Shown: piece by piece, positions 3,535-50,870 of the stretch
How positions within the stretch are numbered: position 1 is the first letter of the stretch
Layout: each line of letters opens with the position of its first letter
NCBI GenBank assembly: GCA_951406725.2
Contig: OX597829.1
Coordinates: 40,052,001 to 40,116,000, forward strand
Source: Octopus vulgaris
Taxonomy: Eukaryota
Length of the DNA: 64,000 nt
Reading direction: 5' to 3'
Notes under the pieces: generated by a model
What the model was told of the DNA's origin: nothing
Databases searched by the model: none
What the model saw: only the letters and a program-made list of their open reading frames with translations
Translations under genes and position numbers: made by a program

Positions 3535-3760
3535 GTATCATTAACTAACTGTTACTTTCTCAGATGCAGTACGGAATTTTTTCTGTGAACAGGTTGCAGT
3601 TTCAAAGCAATGAAAACATTTTGAGAAATTAAATTCAAATGTTGAAGTGAATCTAATGGTGTCTTAAAATGGCTTATAAACACCTTCCATGCTGCAATTG
3701 CTTTTGATTCAGCACATGATCTCAGATAAAGTCACTTGCTATGCAAGTACACCTCCGTAA
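3535..3760 (+). mobile_element. Short pLTR-like repeat with G3:C8 hammerhead-like motif (homolog of 6763-6966)
   Basis: Shares GTGAACAGG, ATGGCTTATAAACACCTTCCA and GATCTCAGAT with 6763-6966; ends at (TA)n. Confidence 0.7.
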
Positions 3761-4705: not shown

Positions 4706-6538
4706 TAAGTGTTCCAGAATTAAGGCAACCAACTTTTATCAATTTTGCCAAAGCAAAATATTGTTATATTTCAGGTCTGAGCATTGAAGTGCAATGGTAA
4801 AGGAAACACAACCACATTTATGGATACTATCACATTTATTTGATATGACCACCTCTGTTTCAAACCTCAGACTTAAGTCTTGGTATGAATACTTTACATG
4901 TGGCATGCAGCTGTTCTTGTGGAATTGAAGCCCATTCCTGGTGCAGTTTTGCCTTCAGAGGGTTGAGCAAAGCATGAGGAGTGCTTGAGACCCTCATCTT
5001 GAAAATAGACCAAACAAAAAAAATCTAACAATTTGAGATCGGGGCTTCTTGCGGGCCATACATCCTTGCCTATGAAAGACGGAATGTTTTTCTGAATCCA
5101 GTGTTGTGTTTGTTTGGCGCTATGGGAAGGTACCAAGTCCTGTTGGAGGCTCCAAGGTGTGCCTTTAAAGTGCTCACTCACCTATGGTTCAGCTTACAGA
5201 ATGTCGCTAATGTATTGCTTGGTATTAATTTTAACACCCATCATCATCATCATCGTTTAACATCCGCTTTCCATGCTACCATGGGTTGGACGATTTTGAC
5301 TGAGGGCTGGTGAACCAGATGGCTGCACCAGGCTCCAATCTTGATCTGGCAGAGTTTCTACAGCTGGATGCCCTTCCTAATGCCAACCACTCCAAGAGTG
5401 TAGTGGGTGCTTTTTGCATGCCACCGGCATGGGAGCAGTCAGGCGGTACTCGCAATGACCTCACTCGAATCTTTTACACATGCCACTGGCACAGGTGCCA
5501 GTAAGGCGATGCTGGTAACAATTACGCTTGAATGGTGTCTTTTATGTGCCACCGGCACGGAGGCCAGATAGCCGCTCTGGCAATGATCATGCTCGGATGG
5601 TGCTCTTGGTACCCTACTAGCATGGGCACAAGTGCCAGTAAGGCGACGCTGGTAATGATCACGCTCGAATGGTGCCTTTTAAGTGCCACTGGCATGGAAG
5701 CCGGTTAGCTGCTCTGTCAATGATTACACTCGTACGGTGCTCTTTGCACCCCACTAGCACGGATGCCAGTCATCAAATTTGATTTTGATGCCACAAAAAT
5801 GAGGGGAGAACTTCCAGTAGATATCACAGTTGCCCAAACCATAACTGACTGTAGATTTTGCTGTCTGTTTACAAGTTTAACATCAACAAAACCAGATACA
5901 CTTCAAAGTCAGTCATTCTGGTGGTTTATTGTCTGTTTCATGTCAAATTACTTTTTATCATTGAACACCAGGTTGGGCATCATACCTTCAGCAATTTGAC
6001 ACAGGATAAGACGACTTCCCTCCATCTTCATGGCCTTATAAACTTGCATGAGCTCATGACAGCAGATCATTTTATATGGTTGGTCCTGAAATCCTCCTTC
6101 CTCACTCAATAAATTTATGTTTGCCTTATTTTTGCTGTGGCAGCCAGCTTTCTGATGGAATAATGAGTATTTCATTATGTCTTTTCTCTGGTACTTTTGA
6201 TAAACTAAGGGCTCCTCACACATTTTTTTTTTTCAGCCACATCCAGATCAATCAGTGGTAGAACCAGTCTCTTGAAATTTCTTGACAATTTTCCAGACTG
6301 TTCAGTTAATTTTAAGCTTTTTTGGTAAAGCTATATTACCTTCACCTCCTTTGTTGAGGGTTATGATTGTATTTCAGTCCATAGCCATTATCCAATTTAT
6401 AAATCTGAATTTATTTAGTCCGAAACAAAAAGAAGACTAAGTAAGCTTTTATAATGATGAAAAATTTTCATATCTTATTACATTTATCGATAGTTATTAA
6501 AGCCCAAAACTTCAGATGCCTTAATTTTAGGATCCCCT
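4706..6538 (-). mobile_element. Degenerate Tc1/mariner-superfamily transposon, DD37D (maT-like), split by a LINE tail
   Basis: ORF 4894-5181 has LQQD...WPARSPDLKLLD with 37 residues between the Ds; VFNDKK/NHQND-like motif near 5910-5970; weak TIRs sharing AATTAAGGCA. Confidence 0.7.
5240..5790 (-). mobile_element. 5'-truncated LINE 3' tail inserted in the DD37D transposase
   Basis: (CAT)n then CGTTTAACATCCGCTTTCCATGC and GGATGCCCTTCCTAA; matches 39420-39875. Confidence 0.85.
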
Positions 6539-6551
6539 ATATATACATACC

Positions 6552-6627
<76 letters not shown>

Positions 6628-6630
<3 letters not shown>

Positions 6631-6962
6631 TGCAGCGTGGAAGGTGTTTATAAGCCATTTAAGAAACACACAAAAGCCGTTCGATTCACTCCAACATTTA
6701 AGTTTAATTTGTCAAAATATTTTCGTCGCTAAAATCCGCGACCTGTTCACTGACAAAGTCCGAGATGCAGCACGGACTTTGTCAGTGAACAGGTCGTGGA
6801 TTTTAGCGACGAAAATATTTTGACAAATTAAACTTAAATGTTGGAGTGAATCGAACGGCTTTTGTGTGTTTCTTAAATGGCTTATAAACACCTTCCACGC
6901 TGCAATTGTTTTCGTTTCAGCACACGATCTCAGATCAAATTACTTGCTATGTGAGTACATCT

Positions 6963-6966
<4 letters not shown>
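6628..6966. mobile_element. Near-perfect ~135-bp-arm palindrome of a pLTR-like element, one hammerhead per arm, flanked by (TA)n
   Basis: Arms 6628-6762 and 6773-6907 with a 10-nt spacer. Confidence 0.85.
6778..6827 (+). ncRNA. Candidate type-I hammerhead ribozyme, G3:C8 core (mirror copy 6708-6757, minus)
   Basis: Stem I TTTGTCA/TGACAAA, core GTGAACA, extra G, stem II GTCGT/GCGAC, GAAA, palindromic ATAT stem III, UUU triplet. Confidence 0.6.
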
Positions 6967-7047
<81 letters not shown>

Positions 7048-7657
7048 CATATATATACATACATATACACACACACACACACACACACATATACATATAT
7101 ACATATATGTATAAATATAAATATGTATAGATATAAGTTTATATATAAATCATGGTTTATAATCATTCAAAAGAAAGTAAGAAAATGGAGATATAACATT
7201 TAATAAAAATTTATCTGCAAAACTCAACCATAGTCCCTTACAGCTGTTTCATTTAAGCTTAATAGGTTAAATAGCAATTATTCAAATCATTATATAAGGC
7301 AAAACCTGGAGCATTGTGAGGGTAAAGTCCTCAGGTAATCCTCCATAGGGTCTTATCAGAAGCAACCATAATTAGACTTTCCAGATGGATTCCCAAAGGT
7401 GTTCAACTGAGACTACAGATATTATTCAACTATCTTATAGATGCAGGCATGGATGTGTGATAAGAAGCTTACTTTCCAAAACACATGGATCTAGGTTCAG
7501 TTCCATGGCATGGCACCTTGGGCTAGTGTCTTTTACTATAGCCTCGAGCTAACCAAAGCTTTGTGAGTGGATTTGGTAGATAGAGACTGAAAGAAACTCG
7601 TCGTATACATATAAATACATATATCAAATAAAATCAAAAACAGAACACAAAGGATAT

Positions 7658-34689: not shown

Positions 34690-36701
34690 ATAAATAAATG
34701 GAGTTTAACGCAGGTGTAAATCAAATATTTTTACTTTCGACACATGTTTCGAAAATTCCACTGATACTATTCAAAAGAATAAATGGTATAAACAATGCAA
34801 TCTTCTCTTCAGGAAAGTGAAAAAAACGAAACTCGTCAATCAGACATTTTAGCAAAAAATGATGGATTTGTATAGCGATAGACAGAACGCTATTAATATT
34901 GTTTAAAAAAACGTTATATGATATAACGTCATAAGTAGCTAACAGAAAGAGTAGGGATACCAATAGTGAATGTTAAATATAAAGGAAATTAAAGTTTAAA
35001 TTACATATAATGATAGAGACTACTTATATGCACTAAATGTGTGTTTTTGCCAATGCTTACATCTGTATGCTCACTCTATAACCGTGTTTACTAGAGTATT
35101 TTTTAGAAAAAATAATGAAAAATAGCTCAGAATTGTAGAGAAGACAGAATTCCTTGCCTTTGTCATAAGGTATCGAAATTGAGAGGATCAACCATTCTAA
35201 ATGAAATTGTTCATTGTGGTCTTTTAAATCCCAAATCAGTTTGCTGAGACCGGTACTATTACGTTTATTTCTATTCCCTAAATGTTGAGTAATGGATAGA
35301 AATTCTTTTAGATAACTCTAACGATGTGCTTCCAATGTAAAATCGTACTTTATTACGAGTACTGATTATACACTGGTATATAGAATTTTTAATCTTTGAG
35401 TTACTTGACATAAACTTAATTCTATTGGAATTGACTTCACATACAATAACCTTGTTATTAATATTTCTAGAGGGTTGGATGGTATTAGCTAAATTAATGC
35501 TAGTATTAGTAAATGTATTAATATTTAACAGTTTGTTATTGTGTGAAGAGATAATTTGTAAAAGATTTTTTTGTGTTTGAAAAACCGATCTTAACCGTAT
35601 GTGAATTGATAAAAGAATAATATCTAGACTGTTTTGGAAAATTCGAAACAGCAGTGGGAGATTAGATTTAATTTGTCTCCCGTAAGGAATTATTAACCAA
35701 ATATTTTTACTAGTATTCATAGCGTAATTATTTTTGAAGGTGTTATATTTACTTTTAGAACGATAATAGGAGATTAAATAAGGGTTATCTGCCTTCATTC
35801 GCTTTGTATCGGTGCGTAAGTTATGTTTGTTATCAATAATTCTTTTACGACTAGAAATCTTATCTACACCATTGAATTTACAATTAGACTGAGCAGAATC
35901 AATGTAGAAAATTTTCTCTGTATAACCTGTTTTAATTAAGGCAGAGTTATAGAATTCAGCGTTATTATTGAAAATATCAACATTAGCAGATAATTTAGAT
36001 AATCTAAATGAAATATTCTTAACTAAGTTCTTAGTAATTGCTCTAGGATGATTACTAAATTTGCTAATGTACTTAAGATTGGTCAATGGTTTTCAATATG
36101 GGAAGTAAGAGTCACTGTGTAAATTAAGCGTAATATTTAAAAAGTTGGCCTTCGTCATATCGTCATCAAAAACGATTTTTAAGCCCATTCTACTGAAAAA
36201 ATTAACTAAACTATTCTTAACTTTTTGTACCTTTTGGTTGGAAACATTTTGGAGGTAAAGTAACCAATCATCACATAAATGTTAGGGAACTCTTCTGCCA
36301 TTTCAAAAAGAATATATATACAGACCAAATCAGCTATCTGTGCTGAATCAGAACTTCCCATTGGTATATCGAAACTACCTGGTGTGTCTTTACAGACCCA
36401 CAACTTATCATCAAATTTAATAATAGATCTTCTGGCTGCCACCACAACATTAATTTCTTCTCGGGTGAGACCAGCTTCGTTATGAGCAAGCCAAAGTGCC
36501 TTATTAAGTACTATTGGATTGATAGATGAATAAAAATTGGAAATATCAAACTGGATAAACTTAGTACTCACCTTATTGGTAATAGAACTAAACCAGTCAA
36601 CTACTTCAAACGAATTAGTTCATAAACTAAGTTTTAATGTTCTAATTAAATTAGGAATATATTTATCTAGTATATTTTTACTAAGGATACCGATGTCAGA
36701 G

Positions 36702-47423: not shown

Positions 47424-50400
47424 TGTCAGGTCTCCGCTTGGAGCTACTGGTAACATGTAACCCAGTACAACCTGTTACATGGTCGGGTCGTTGGCGACTA
47501 AACTGGCAACCTCACCAAGATTTCTTGGTGAGGGTGATTTGGACACCCAGCAGGACTAAAAACAAAACCTGTCAAAGGGCAGAGGAACTCTCTCATGAGT
47601 CAATGGCCATCCAAAATCCGGAGTGGAGCCCCTAAGGCGGTTAGATTGCGCCATGCGTGCCACCTTCCGGCAGCTCCTGCATCCTGGTCTACCCCCAGCC
47701 GTCTTGACTTTGTCTTGCCACTGGATACGGCGCACCAGGACGAGAGAGTGAGGCTGATCCTGCGCAAGTCACCCTCACTATAATCCAAGTCACGCGCATG
47801 TCATGACATCATGACACCATCACAAAGTCCTGTGGCGATGGAGAAACGGCGAAGTAGCAGGTGAGGATACACTGGGAGCTGCAGTCGTGAACCCACACAC
47901 AGGCGGCTCAAGACATGTGGTCGCCCCTCACTGAACTGAGGCAGCAGTGGAGTCCGGCAGCCTCCTGAGTGACCGAGCAGCCCTCTTCAGGATCGCTCTG
48001 CTCGCCTCCCCAGCATGAGGACGGGGCTAGAAAAGGTTGCCCTAAACATAGCCTGCCTCACCTCACCCTGGTCAGCAAACCGCGGCTGGCGGGGATCCTT
48101 TCCAAGCGGTCGAAACAAAGAAAGAAAACAAACAAAGGTGCTCACTTTCGCAACTTGGAACGTGAGAACTCTGCTTGACAACACCAAAGCGGACAGACCA
48201 GAGAGACGAACTGCCCTGGTGGCCAGAGAACTGAGCCGATACAATGTCGATATCGCAGCACTGAGCGAGACTCGCCTTGCGGACAAAGGCCAGCTGACAG
48301 AGACAGGCGGCGGCTACACTTTCTTTTGGAGTGGTCGCAGCAGCGAAGAGCGTCGTGAGGCTGGTTTGGTTTTGCCATCAAGTCAGTACACGTGCGGAAA
48401 CTGGAAAGCTCCCCCGAGGTTATCAACGATCGGCTGATGAAGATGCAGCTCCCACTTGGAAACAAGACTAGTGCGACCAACATCAGCGCTTACGCCCCCA
48501 CCATGACCAACCCTGAAGAAGTTAAGGACAGGTTCTATGAGGAACTCGACTCCCTCATCACGTCAGCCCAGCCTGGGAAGCTCATCCTCCTTGGGGATTT
48601 TAACGCCCGTGTCGGGACTGACCACCAAGCCTGGCATCGCGTACTGGGAAAGCAAGGAATCGGAAAGTGCAACAACAACGGGCAGCTCCTCCTGCGTGCG
48701 TCTGCCTCTCATGATCTTACCATCGCCAACACCTTGTTCCGTCTGCCAACACGCAACAAGACATCATGGATGCATCCACGCTCCAAACACTGGCATCTGA
48801 TAGATTACGTCATCGTCAGGGCGAAAGACAGGCGGGACATGAGACTGGTCAAAGCCATGTGCGGAGCTGATTGCTGGACGGACCATCGCCTCATCATCTC
48901 CAGGATGGATTTCTACATCCGACCTAAGAGAAGACCACAGGGTCAGAAAGTGACGAGGAAGCTTAACATCACGAAATTAAAGAACCAGCTGACTGCACAA
49001 GATCTCCAGTCACGTATGGACAGCAAGCTGTTGGACATTCGGAATGACCAGTCCAGCATCGATGAGCAGTGGGAATCATTCAGGGACACGGTTCATTCCA
49101 TCGCCCTTGAAACTCTAGGCCAAGTTACGAGGAACCACCAGGACTGGTTCGACGAAAACGACCAGGAAATCCAAAAGCTCCTGGAAGAGAAACGCCGTCT
49201 GCTGCGGGCTCACCAAAATGACACCACCTGCACGGCAAAGAAGGCTGCTTTCAACAACATTCGCAGCACAGTCCAGGCAAAACTCCGCCTCATGCAAGAC
49301 GCATGGTTAAGCGCCAAGGCGGATGAGATTCAGGGATACGCAGACAAACACGACACCAAGAAATTCTACGAGGCGCTGAAAGCTATCTATGGACCACAGT
49401 TCTCCTTTGGATCAACCCCCCTGCTCAGCTCGGATGGAACCTCACTCCTGACTAACAAGAAACTGATCCTGGAGAGACGGGCGGAGCATTTCAACATCGT
49501 GCTCAACCGACCAGCCCAGATCAACGAGGAAGCCATCGCACGACTCCCCCAGGTGCCGACAAACCACGAGCTGGCTGTTCCCCCTGCAGTCGAGGAAGTG
49601 AGCAGAGCCATCAAAAAAATGTCCACCGGCAAAGCTCCAGGCTCTGACGCCATCCCTGCAGAGGTGTTCAAGTCGGGCGGCCCCACCAAGCCTGTTCCAG
49701 TCGATGTGGGACAGAAAACAACTCCCTCAAGATTTCCGGGACGCAACAATCGTCCACATTTATAAACGGAAAGGAGATCGGCAGTCCTGCGACAACCACC
49801 GAGGAATCTCCCTCTTGTCCATAGCAGGCAAGATCCTGGCCCGAGTCCTGCTTGACCGCCTTCTGGAACACTTGGAGCAAGGCCTTCTCCCTGAGAGCCA
49901 GTGTGGCTTCCGTGCGGGTCGAGGGACCACTGACATGATATTCGCCGCCCGCCAGCTCCAGGAGAAATGCATGGAGCAGCACCTTGACCTCTGCATGACT
50001 TTTGTTGACCTCACCAAGGCTTTCGATACAGTCAGTCGGGAGGGACTATGGAAGGTCATGGGAAAATTTGGTTGCCCCAGCAAATTTATTGCAATTGTCC
50101 GCCAGTTCCACGACGGAATGACAGCCAGAGTCCTTGAAGACGGCAACTCATCTGAAGCCTTCCAGGTGACCAACGGAGTCAGGCAGGGCTGTGTCCTGGC
50201 CCCAACACTGTTCAGCATCATGTTCTCGTCAATGCTGTCCGACGCCTTCAGGGACTGCAAGTCCGGTATCGACATCAAGTACAGGACAGACGGGAAACTT
50301 TTCAACTCCAGAAGATTGCAGGCCGTCACAAAGGTAAGGGAGACAGTCGTCAGAGACTTTCTCTTTGCTGACGACTGCGCCCTTAATGCAATCGATGAGC

Positions 50401-50624
50401 AGGAGATGCAGCTCGGGATGGACAGGTTCTCATCAGCCTATGACAACTTCGGTCTCACCATCAGTGCCAAGAAAACCGAAGTGATGTTTCAGCCAGCCCC
50501 CGGCAAACAATACCATGAACCTCAGATAAAGGTGAACGGACGGATCCTACGAGCGGTGGAAAACTTCACCTACCTGGGCAGCATTCTCTCCTGCAATGCC
50601 AACATAGATGCTGAAATCATCAAC
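47424..50624 (+). mobile_element. Young RTE-clade LINE with 5' UTR, 3' end lost
   Basis: About 600-bp GC-rich leader, then a single APE-RT frame; abrupt junction to SINE A. Confidence 0.95.
48015..50624 (+). pseudogene. RTE endonuclease-reverse transcriptase, two frameshifts (~48370, ~49690)
   Basis: TWNVRTL, IAALSETR, GDFNA, IDY, TDH; KAPGSD, QCGFR, FVDLTKAFD, GVRQGCVLAP, LFADD, FTYLG. Confidence 0.95.
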
Positions 50625-50870
50625 ATCGGTTGTCAAGCAATGCTAGGGGGGACAAACACAGACACACAAACATACACGCACACAGACATATATATATACA
50701 TATATACGACAGGCTTCTTTCAGTTTCCGTCTACCAAATCCACTCACAAGGCATTGGTCGGCCCGGGGCTATAGCAGAAGACACTTGCCCAAGATGCCAC
50801 GCAGTGGGACTGAAACCGGAACCATGCGGTTGGTTAGCAAGCTACTTACCACACAGCCACTCCTGCGCCT
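50624..50870 (-). mobile_element. SINE family A, 5' half
   Basis: Match to 275-520. Confidence 0.9.

What the first reader, a model, noticed from the sequence alone, without database searches (positions are those of the whole stretch)
6708..6827. Hammerhead fold with inverted catalytic pair G3:C8, conserved in a diverged copy
Seen: TTTGTCA-GTGAACA-G-GTCGT..GCGAC-GAAA-ATAT-TT-TGACAAA gives a 7-bp stem I, 5-bp stem II and palindromic stem III, but the core is GUGAACA rather than CUGANGA. The diverged copy at 3578-3628 keeps GTGAACAG and GAAA while stem II changes to GTTGC/GCAAT. Known: positions 3 and 8 form a tertiary Watson-Crick pair, and compensatory swaps restore cleavage in vitro. Inference: a natural G3:C8 hammerhead lineage that CUGANGA-based searches would miss.
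Basis: partly seen in the sequence, partly recalled or inferred. Interest (0 to 1): 0.8.

Follow-up and report, generated by a model that had tools for sequence, protein, structure and literature searches.

The report
Flipped-core hammerhead in octopus jumping genes
Thousands of copies of an octopus jumping gene carry a hammerhead-shaped RNA motif whose central base pair is flipped (G-C instead of C-G), while sister families carry C-G or U-A at the same spot, so it is likely a natural new form of this self-cutting RNA, though cutting is untested.

Summary
The motif is real (window 6778-6827, mirror copy 6708-6757). It is the minimal type-I hammerhead in the terminal repeat of a Neptune/Nematis-type Penelope-like retrotransposon (family A; RT plus GIY-YIG ORF).

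G3:C8 is the family's master state: 117 of 125 fetched copies, and 7,692 genome-wide pattern hits against 4 controls. It recurs in an older related family E (8 of 8), where N7 and stem pairs have changed. At the same place, related families carry C3:G8 (B, 83 of 83) or mostly U3:A8 (D, 16 of 25). So the 3:8 pair covaries between families.

The window locus is a dead insertion predicted to fold into one long hairpin.

Cleavage is not shown. No copy starts at the predicted cut (0 of 30), and a sister subfamily spreads with A9C.

Natural U3:A8 and engineered G3:C8 are published. I found no natural G3:C8 in the papers I could search, but key papers were not held. Verdict: new variant of a known kind.

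The parts
6778..6827 (+). Minimal type-I hammerhead motif, G3 (6785):C8 (6790) core, extra G 6792, predicted cut 6820/6821
6708..6757 (-). Mirror copy of the motif in the inverted arm (G3 at 6750; perfect 5-bp stem II)
6763..6964 (+). 5'-truncated 3' end (pLTR) of Penelope-like family A; 98-99% identical to the best other copies
6628..6762 (-). Inverted partial copy lacking the tail; with the + copy it forms a ~130-bp inverted repeat
6908..6964 (+). 'Tail' present only on the forward copy
6877..6964 (+). Start of the element's ORF (ATG 6877, [14 protein letters not shown]...); in L119/L067 it runs in frame into the RT ORF
6538..6627 (.). (TA)n microsatellite at the left insertion boundary
6966..7147 (.). 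(TA)n microsatellite at the right insertion boundary
3540..3760 (+). Old decayed copy of the same pLTR; motif 3578-3628 (G3 3585); upstream CTAAC...TCAG signal resembling a 3' splice acceptor or initiator

Best explanation
The motif is the minimal type-I hammerhead carried in the terminal repeat of a high-copy Penelope-like retrotransposon lineage, in which the tertiary 3:8 pair is G3:C8 instead of C3:G8, and it likely still acts as a slow, dimer- or protein-assisted self-cleaving RNA. Shown: it sits 56 nt upstream of the start codon of an RT + GIY-YIG ORF, once in each pLTR of a full element; G3:C8 is the master state in two related families; sister families hold C3:G8 or U3:A8 at the same position. 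Inferred: selection kept positions 3 and 8 paired through a double transversion; the element RNA folds stems I and II; two motifs would pair through the AAUAUU palindrome to build helix III; cutting after U17 would trim tandem or read-through transcripts. Cutting is probably not needed for each insertion. The copy in this window is a dead insertion whose transcript would fold into one long hairpin and not cut.
For: Element: L062 holds a 1025-aa open frame with RT motifs, a C-x3-C-x2-C linker and GIY-YIG (PF01541 above its curated cut-off). L119 has the motif in both pLTRs, 4.26 kb apart. Master state: 117 of 125 fetched family-A copies are G:C; 7,692 pattern hits versus 4 controls, inverted arms included. 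Family E, found from one pattern hit plus 7 BLAST relatives: G:C in 8 of 8, with N7=C and stem II U-A in place of C-G in most copies. Family B (55% aa identity): C:G in 83 of 83; canonical CUGANGA-G pattern 201 hits versus 4 controls, mostly B-like among the 100 listed. Family D: U:A 16, U.G 5, C:G 3, C:A 1 of 25. Outgroups from metagenome contigs, found by protein: L207 U3:A8, L208/L209 C3:G8. In a 15-row alignment the 3:8 pair was Watson-Crick in 15 of 15 (CG 9, GC 4, UA 2), 10 of 14 pairs had a two-sided change, and the covariation score was 0.338 versus 0.151 shuffled and at most 0.107 slid (several rows were picked by patterns that fix this pair). Stem II pair probabilities 1.0 and the five inner stem I pairs 0.85-1.0 in element context. 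In a lizard Penelope hammerhead the engineered C3G/G8C double mutant partly restores cleavage (PMC11167929, passages). G3-C8 works worse with C17 than with G17 (PMC3884650, passage, data not shown there); here N17 is U.
Against: No cleavage data. None of 30 young copies sampled without regard to their 5' end starts at the predicted cut, and a pattern for such starts gave 5 hits genome-wide against 1,205 young tails. The young B subfamily spreads with A9C (79 of 83 CTGATGCG), so purifying selection on the core is not strict. One of the two C3:G8 outgroups (L208/L209) reads AAAA in place of GAAA, and L206 showed no motif. The extra nucleotide is G, while the published consensus is H. The palindrome extends to 10 nt (A13 to U1.1), which could trap an inactive dimer; the predicted lowest-energy dimer used this longer duplex. 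A lower private-mutation rate in the core among 29 old copies (1/318 vs 79/3577, p=0.02) is not borne out genome-wide: 504 G3:non-C8 hits versus 7,692, as expected from neutral decay.
Confidence: 0.68

Rival explanations
1. It is a hammerhead descendant that no longer cuts in practice; the fold is kept for another job in the element RNA (protein binding, translation control or dimerisation), and G3:C8 only preserves the shape.
For: No 5' ends at the cut in 30 copies; A9C in a successful sister subfamily; hammerhead mutants did not affect insertion in vitro and no RNA-seq ends were seen at the cut in Anolis (PMC11167929); minimal hammerheads cut weakly even as dimers (PMC4209133).
Against: The 3:8 pair positions the general acid and matters mainly for catalysis (recalled; PMC8495972 passage, gives a 10^5-fold loss for G8C). 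G5, A6, A13, A14, A15.1 and U16.1 are invariant in all 15 aligned rows.
Confidence: 0.24
2. G3 and C8 were fixed by overlapping signals rather than by pairing: each completes a CAG that could serve as a splice acceptor downstream of the CTAAC/pyrimidine tract, and UGA in the core closes a 7-codon upstream ORF.
For: The sequence shows TTTGTCAG ending at G3 and AACAG|G at C8-A9-G.
Against: It does not explain why families B and D and two outgroups also hold Watson-Crick pairs at 3:8. No splice joint was seen in four laid runs, but these were contigs and the stretch lacked a donor, so the test was weak.
Confidence: 0.06
3. Chance resemblance to a hammerhead.
For: No Rfam hammerhead model scores it.
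Against: 0.02 equal hits per shuffled window; same position and architecture as canonical-core motifs in sister elements.
Confidence: 0.02

Closest known systems
Minimal hammerheads (min-HHRs) of metazoan Penelope-like elements, including the U3-A8 variant of Schistosoma Cercyon elements (Cervera and De la Pena 2014, PMC4209133)
   Same: Type I, in the pLTRs, extra nucleotide between 9 and 10.1, G10.1-C11.1, short palindromic helix III, opposite-strand pairs, thousands of truncated copies.
   Different: G3:C8 core: none of the 56 motif rows in the text of its Fig. S3 begins with G. Extra nucleotide G rather than H. 7-bp stem I.
Natural U3-A8 hammerheads (Perreault et al. 2011, PMC3088659, section 8 read)
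   Same: Natural covariation of the 3:8 pair.
   Different: C:G to U:A needs two transitions through a wobble; G:C needs two transversions through a mismatch. That section names only U3-A8.
Engineered C3G/G8C hammerheads (Anolis Poseidon element, PMC11167929; Martick and Scott 2006 as cited there)
   Same: Same flipped pair; partial rescue of cleavage.
   Different: Laboratory mutants, not a natural lineage.
Neptune/Nematis clades of EN+ Penelope-like elements (Craig et al. 2021, PMC8557442, passages)
   Same: RT, CX2-5CxxC linker, C-terminal GIY-YIG, (TA)n targets, inverted truncated copy, tail.
   Different: Neptune versus Nematis not resolved here; no reference sequences were in my tree.

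Membership tests
Hammerhead ribozyme (type I) | Three-way junction: stems I and II around the core | tested here: met
   two-sided pair changes between families
Hammerhead ribozyme (type I) | Literal consensus C3 and G8 (CUGANGA) | tested here: not met
   G3 and C8; no Rfam hammerhead hit at E<=10
Hammerhead ribozyme (type I) | Watson-Crick pair between positions 3 and 8 | tested here: met
   G:C in A and E, C:G in B, mostly U:A in D, U:A in L207
Hammerhead ribozyme (type I) | U4 G5 A6 A9, G12 A13 A14, A15.1:U16.1, H17 | tested here: met
Hammerhead ribozyme (type I) | Site-specific self-cleavage after N17 | not testable with these tools
   Only contigs were available; 0 of 30 genomic 5' ends at the cut
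PLE minimal hammerhead | Located in both pLTRs of a Penelope-like element | tested here: met
   L119 positions 2242 and 6503
PLE minimal hammerhead | Extra nucleotide between 9 and 10.1, G10.1-C11.1, palindromic helix III | tested here: met
   G9a, G-C, AAUAUU; the published consensus for the extra base is H
PLE minimal hammerhead | Cleavage as a dimer | not testable with these tools
   Cofold favoured a longer palindromic duplex; not decisive
EN+ Penelope-like element | Single ORF with RT and C-terminal GIY-YIG, pLTRs, tail, inverted truncated copy | tested here: met
   RT recognised by motifs and homologues, not by a Pfam hit
Neptune/Nematis clades | CX2-5CxxC linker before the endonuclease | tested here: met
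   CQSNCAVC in the ORF; definition
Neptune clade | RT phylogeny with named reference elements | not tested
   No reference sequences in the tree

The most novel reading that the evidence does not exclude
This is the first natural, catalytically active G3:C8 hammerhead lineage, and one retrotransposon clade in one genome has carried three different Watson-Crick pairs (C:G, U:A, G:C) at the ribozyme's key tertiary position. It is a natural record of a ribozyme crossing a double-transversion valley, and it implies a hidden class of flipped-core hammerheads that current searches skip.
Probability: 0.4. Interest if true: 0.68.

Novelty: new variant of a known kind. Interest (0 to 1): 0.52.

Why it matters
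It would add the third natural state of the hammerhead's 3:8 tertiary pair, so far seen only as a laboratory rescue mutant in the papers I could search. More than 7,000 such motifs in one genome are invisible to Rfam and to CUGANGA strings, so reports that some elements lack a hammerhead may need a re-scan. Families A, B and D give matched natural variants (G:C, C:G, U:A, and A9C) for asking whether Penelope-like elements need their ribozyme to cut at all, which is an open question (PMC11167929, PMC8557442).

Tried and rejected
1. Diverged copy as covariation evidence: rejected (CpG decay, p=0.12; fold z=+0.22).
2. Core conserved above flanks among dead copies: a weak signal in 29 copies, not supported genome-wide; the wrong test for neutrally decaying insertions.
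3. Rfam: only microsatellite- or hairpin-driven miRNA-type matches below gathering score among the rows listed (150 of 187 rows shown, all 47).
4. Expression, splicing and cleavage from public runs: no RNA holder listed; 4 of 24 runs laid, all contigs, no splice joint and no end pile-up. No evidence either way.
5. Protein searches of the own genome with outside homologues returned only families A and B among the loci checked (loci were judged by their places, not parsed).
6. Metagenome scan: 7 loci, of which 4 had a 3' flank and 3 of those showed a motif (L208 and L209 are near-identical); 1 weak viral-contig hit.
7. One DNA search of the own genome returned nothing because common words are skipped.
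8. In alignment A4 the two outgroup rows are misaligned in stems I and II, which lowers the paired percentage; they were left in.
9. Family E and the L226/L244/L246/L247 loci were left out of the tree for lack of ORF fragments.
10. Lunse et al. 2017 and Hammann et al. 2012 were not held; Seehafer 2011 and Przybilski and Hammann 2007 were not looked up.

Full report
OBSERVATION. On the + strand: stem I 6778-6784/6821-6827, core GUGAACA 6785-6791, an extra G, stem II 6793-6797/6806-6810, GAAA, the palindrome AAUAUU, and U17 at 6820. A mirror copy lies at 6708-6757 on the minus strand. A descriptor that leaves positions 3 and 8 free finds only these two hits in the window; 100 block shuffles gave 0.11 hits of any kind and 0.02 of equal quality per window. 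Fold z-scores are -2.6 and -3.4. Rfam gives no hammerhead match here even at E<=10.

CONTEXT. The motif is part of a ~200-nt repeat end with thousands of candidates in the genome (2,092 and 4,137 first-look candidates). The genome is octopus: a protein named as Octopus vulgaris by its source matches it at 100%. Longer copies lead to an ORF with RT motifs, a C-x3-C-x2-C linker and a GIY-YIG domain (1025-aa open frame in L062; PF01541). L119 shows pLTR-ORF-pLTR with the motif in both repeats, and the pLTR runs in frame into the ORF from an ATG 56 nt past the predicted cut. Inverted truncated arm, tail and (TA)n targets match the description of Penelope-like elements, and the linker points to Neptune or Nematis (PMC8557442, passages). 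The window locus is a truncated insertion with a ~130-bp inverted repeat; folded whole, the hammerhead stems have probability 0.

IS G3:C8 THE FAMILY STATE? Yes. 117 of 125 fetched copies covering the core are G:C; the rest are G:G 4, G:T 2, A:C 1, gap 1. A G3:C8 pattern has 7,692 hits versus 4 controls, inverted arms included. The same pattern with any other base at 8 has 504 hits versus 18 controls, with T, G and A all present among the 100 listed, as expected from decay.

It keeps the core, but so do almost all of 30 old copies. Its stem II changes fall on CpG sites, and the two sides of the pair are not significantly coupled (Fisher p=0.12). Its closing pairs are damaged and its fold is no better than shuffles. 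It is not evidence of selection.

EVIDENCE FROM SISTER FAMILIES. Family B (55% identical over the C-terminal 547 aa) has the same architecture at the same place with C3:G8 in 83 of 83 copies; its young subfamily has A9C. A canonical-core pattern found 201 hits versus 4 controls, mostly older B-like copies among the 100 listed. Family D, seeded by one of those hits, is U:A in 16, U.G in 5, C:G in 3 and C:A in 1 of 25 copies. Family E, seeded by an odd hit, is an old relative of A (N-terminal peptide 52-69% identical in 3 of 8 loci) and is G:C in 8 of 8, with N7 changed to C, a longer stem II and a four-base helix III palindrome in most copies. Two outgroup elements from metagenome contigs, found by protein, carry U3:A8 (L207) and C3:G8 (L208/L209, the latter with G12A); L206 showed no motif. 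In a 15-row alignment the 3:8 pair is Watson-Crick in all rows, in three types, and 10 of 14 pairs show two-sided change. Caveat: seven C:G rows and the seeds of D and E came from patterns that fix this pair, and relatedness inflates such scores. The independent evidence is young B, the bulk of D and E, and the outgroups. A tree of the C-terminal region puts A sister to B+D (98/97) in an octopus clade (100/99), drawn with a midpoint root only, so the ancestral pair is not established.

MECHANISM. Shown: position, fold potential in element context, heritability, and covariation of 3:8 between families. Inferred from known hammerheads: G3:C8 keeps the tertiary pair; two motifs pair via AAUAUU to make helix III; cleavage after U17 trims tandem or read-through transcripts. 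In the Anolis Poseidon element the engineered double mutant partly restores cleavage, cleavage needs the protein, and insertion does not need cleavage (PMC11167929, passages). Minimal hammerheads cut weakly as dimers (PMC4209133, main text read to the references).

RESULTS AGAINST. None of 30 young copies, taken as the first exact tail matches on contig 1, starts at the predicted cut. A pattern for such starts gave 5 hits, two of which look like true starts there, against 1,205 tails; that pattern misses starts preceded by T. So cleaved RNA is not the usual template. Young family B thrives with A9C. The palindrome can extend to 10 nt and the predicted dimer uses that inactive register. The extra base is G, not the published H. 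Public runs gave only contigs and no usable evidence.

LITERATURE. Natural U3-A8 is in print (PMC3088659 section 8; PMC4209133). G3-C8 appeared only as an engineered variant: 'hammerhead + G3-C8' gave 1 paper (passages) and 'C3G + G8C' gave 2 (passages). Searches gave none; two searches listed only unrelated titles; one search gave only PMC4209133; led to passages of PMC6962438 that mention Rfam hammerheads in giant squid. None of the 56 motif rows in the text of Fig. S3 of PMC4209133 starts with G (supplement parts 1-2 of 3). I saw passages only of PMC6155905, PMC6765202 and bioRxiv 10.64898/2026.07.22.740005. Lunse et al. 2017, the largest survey of these motifs as I recall it, and Hammann et al. 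2012 were not held; figures and bioRxiv supplements were not visible. An earlier report cannot be excluded. Two unchecked notes of this scan describe G3-C8 candidates in other genomes; they are leads only.

VERDICT. It works like, and by homology belongs with, the minimal hammerheads of Penelope-like elements; it fails the literal C3/G8 consensus but meets the pairing rule; catalysis is untested. New variant of a known kind; interest 0.52.

Noticed in passing
window 34733-34818 (-), ORF remnant 35274-36092 (-): A second, different Penelope-like remnant (family C, 2,724 first-look candidates) with a canonical C3:G8 hammerhead-like motif: GUC triplet, long stem II, N7 varying A/G among 25 copies.
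   Followed up: partly
window ~6760-6766; loci L284-L313: 10 of 30 young copies begin within 25 to 19 nt upstream of G3, at the CTAAC...YYAG|ATG signal. This 5'-end hotspot may mark a transcription start or splice acceptor; no shared upstream exon was seen.
   Followed up: partly
L115-L118, L140: Young family B has many near-intact copies (open frames up to 1312 aa) and a fixed A9C change in its hammerhead core (79 of 83 copies), plus a GTAAGT donor-like site just upstream.
   Followed up: partly
L259-L283: Family D (3,495 first-look candidates) carries mainly U3:A8 with a 3-bp stem I, plus U.G and C:G copies that could be steps of a C:G to U:A change.
   Followed up: partly
window 47973-50771 (+): Remnant of a LINE with AP-endonuclease and RT frames; family not tested.
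   Followed up: no
P0114: A database protein named dynein regulatory complex subunit 6-like begins with about 150 aa resembling this element's RT, probably an annotation chimera or exonised copy.
   Followed up: no
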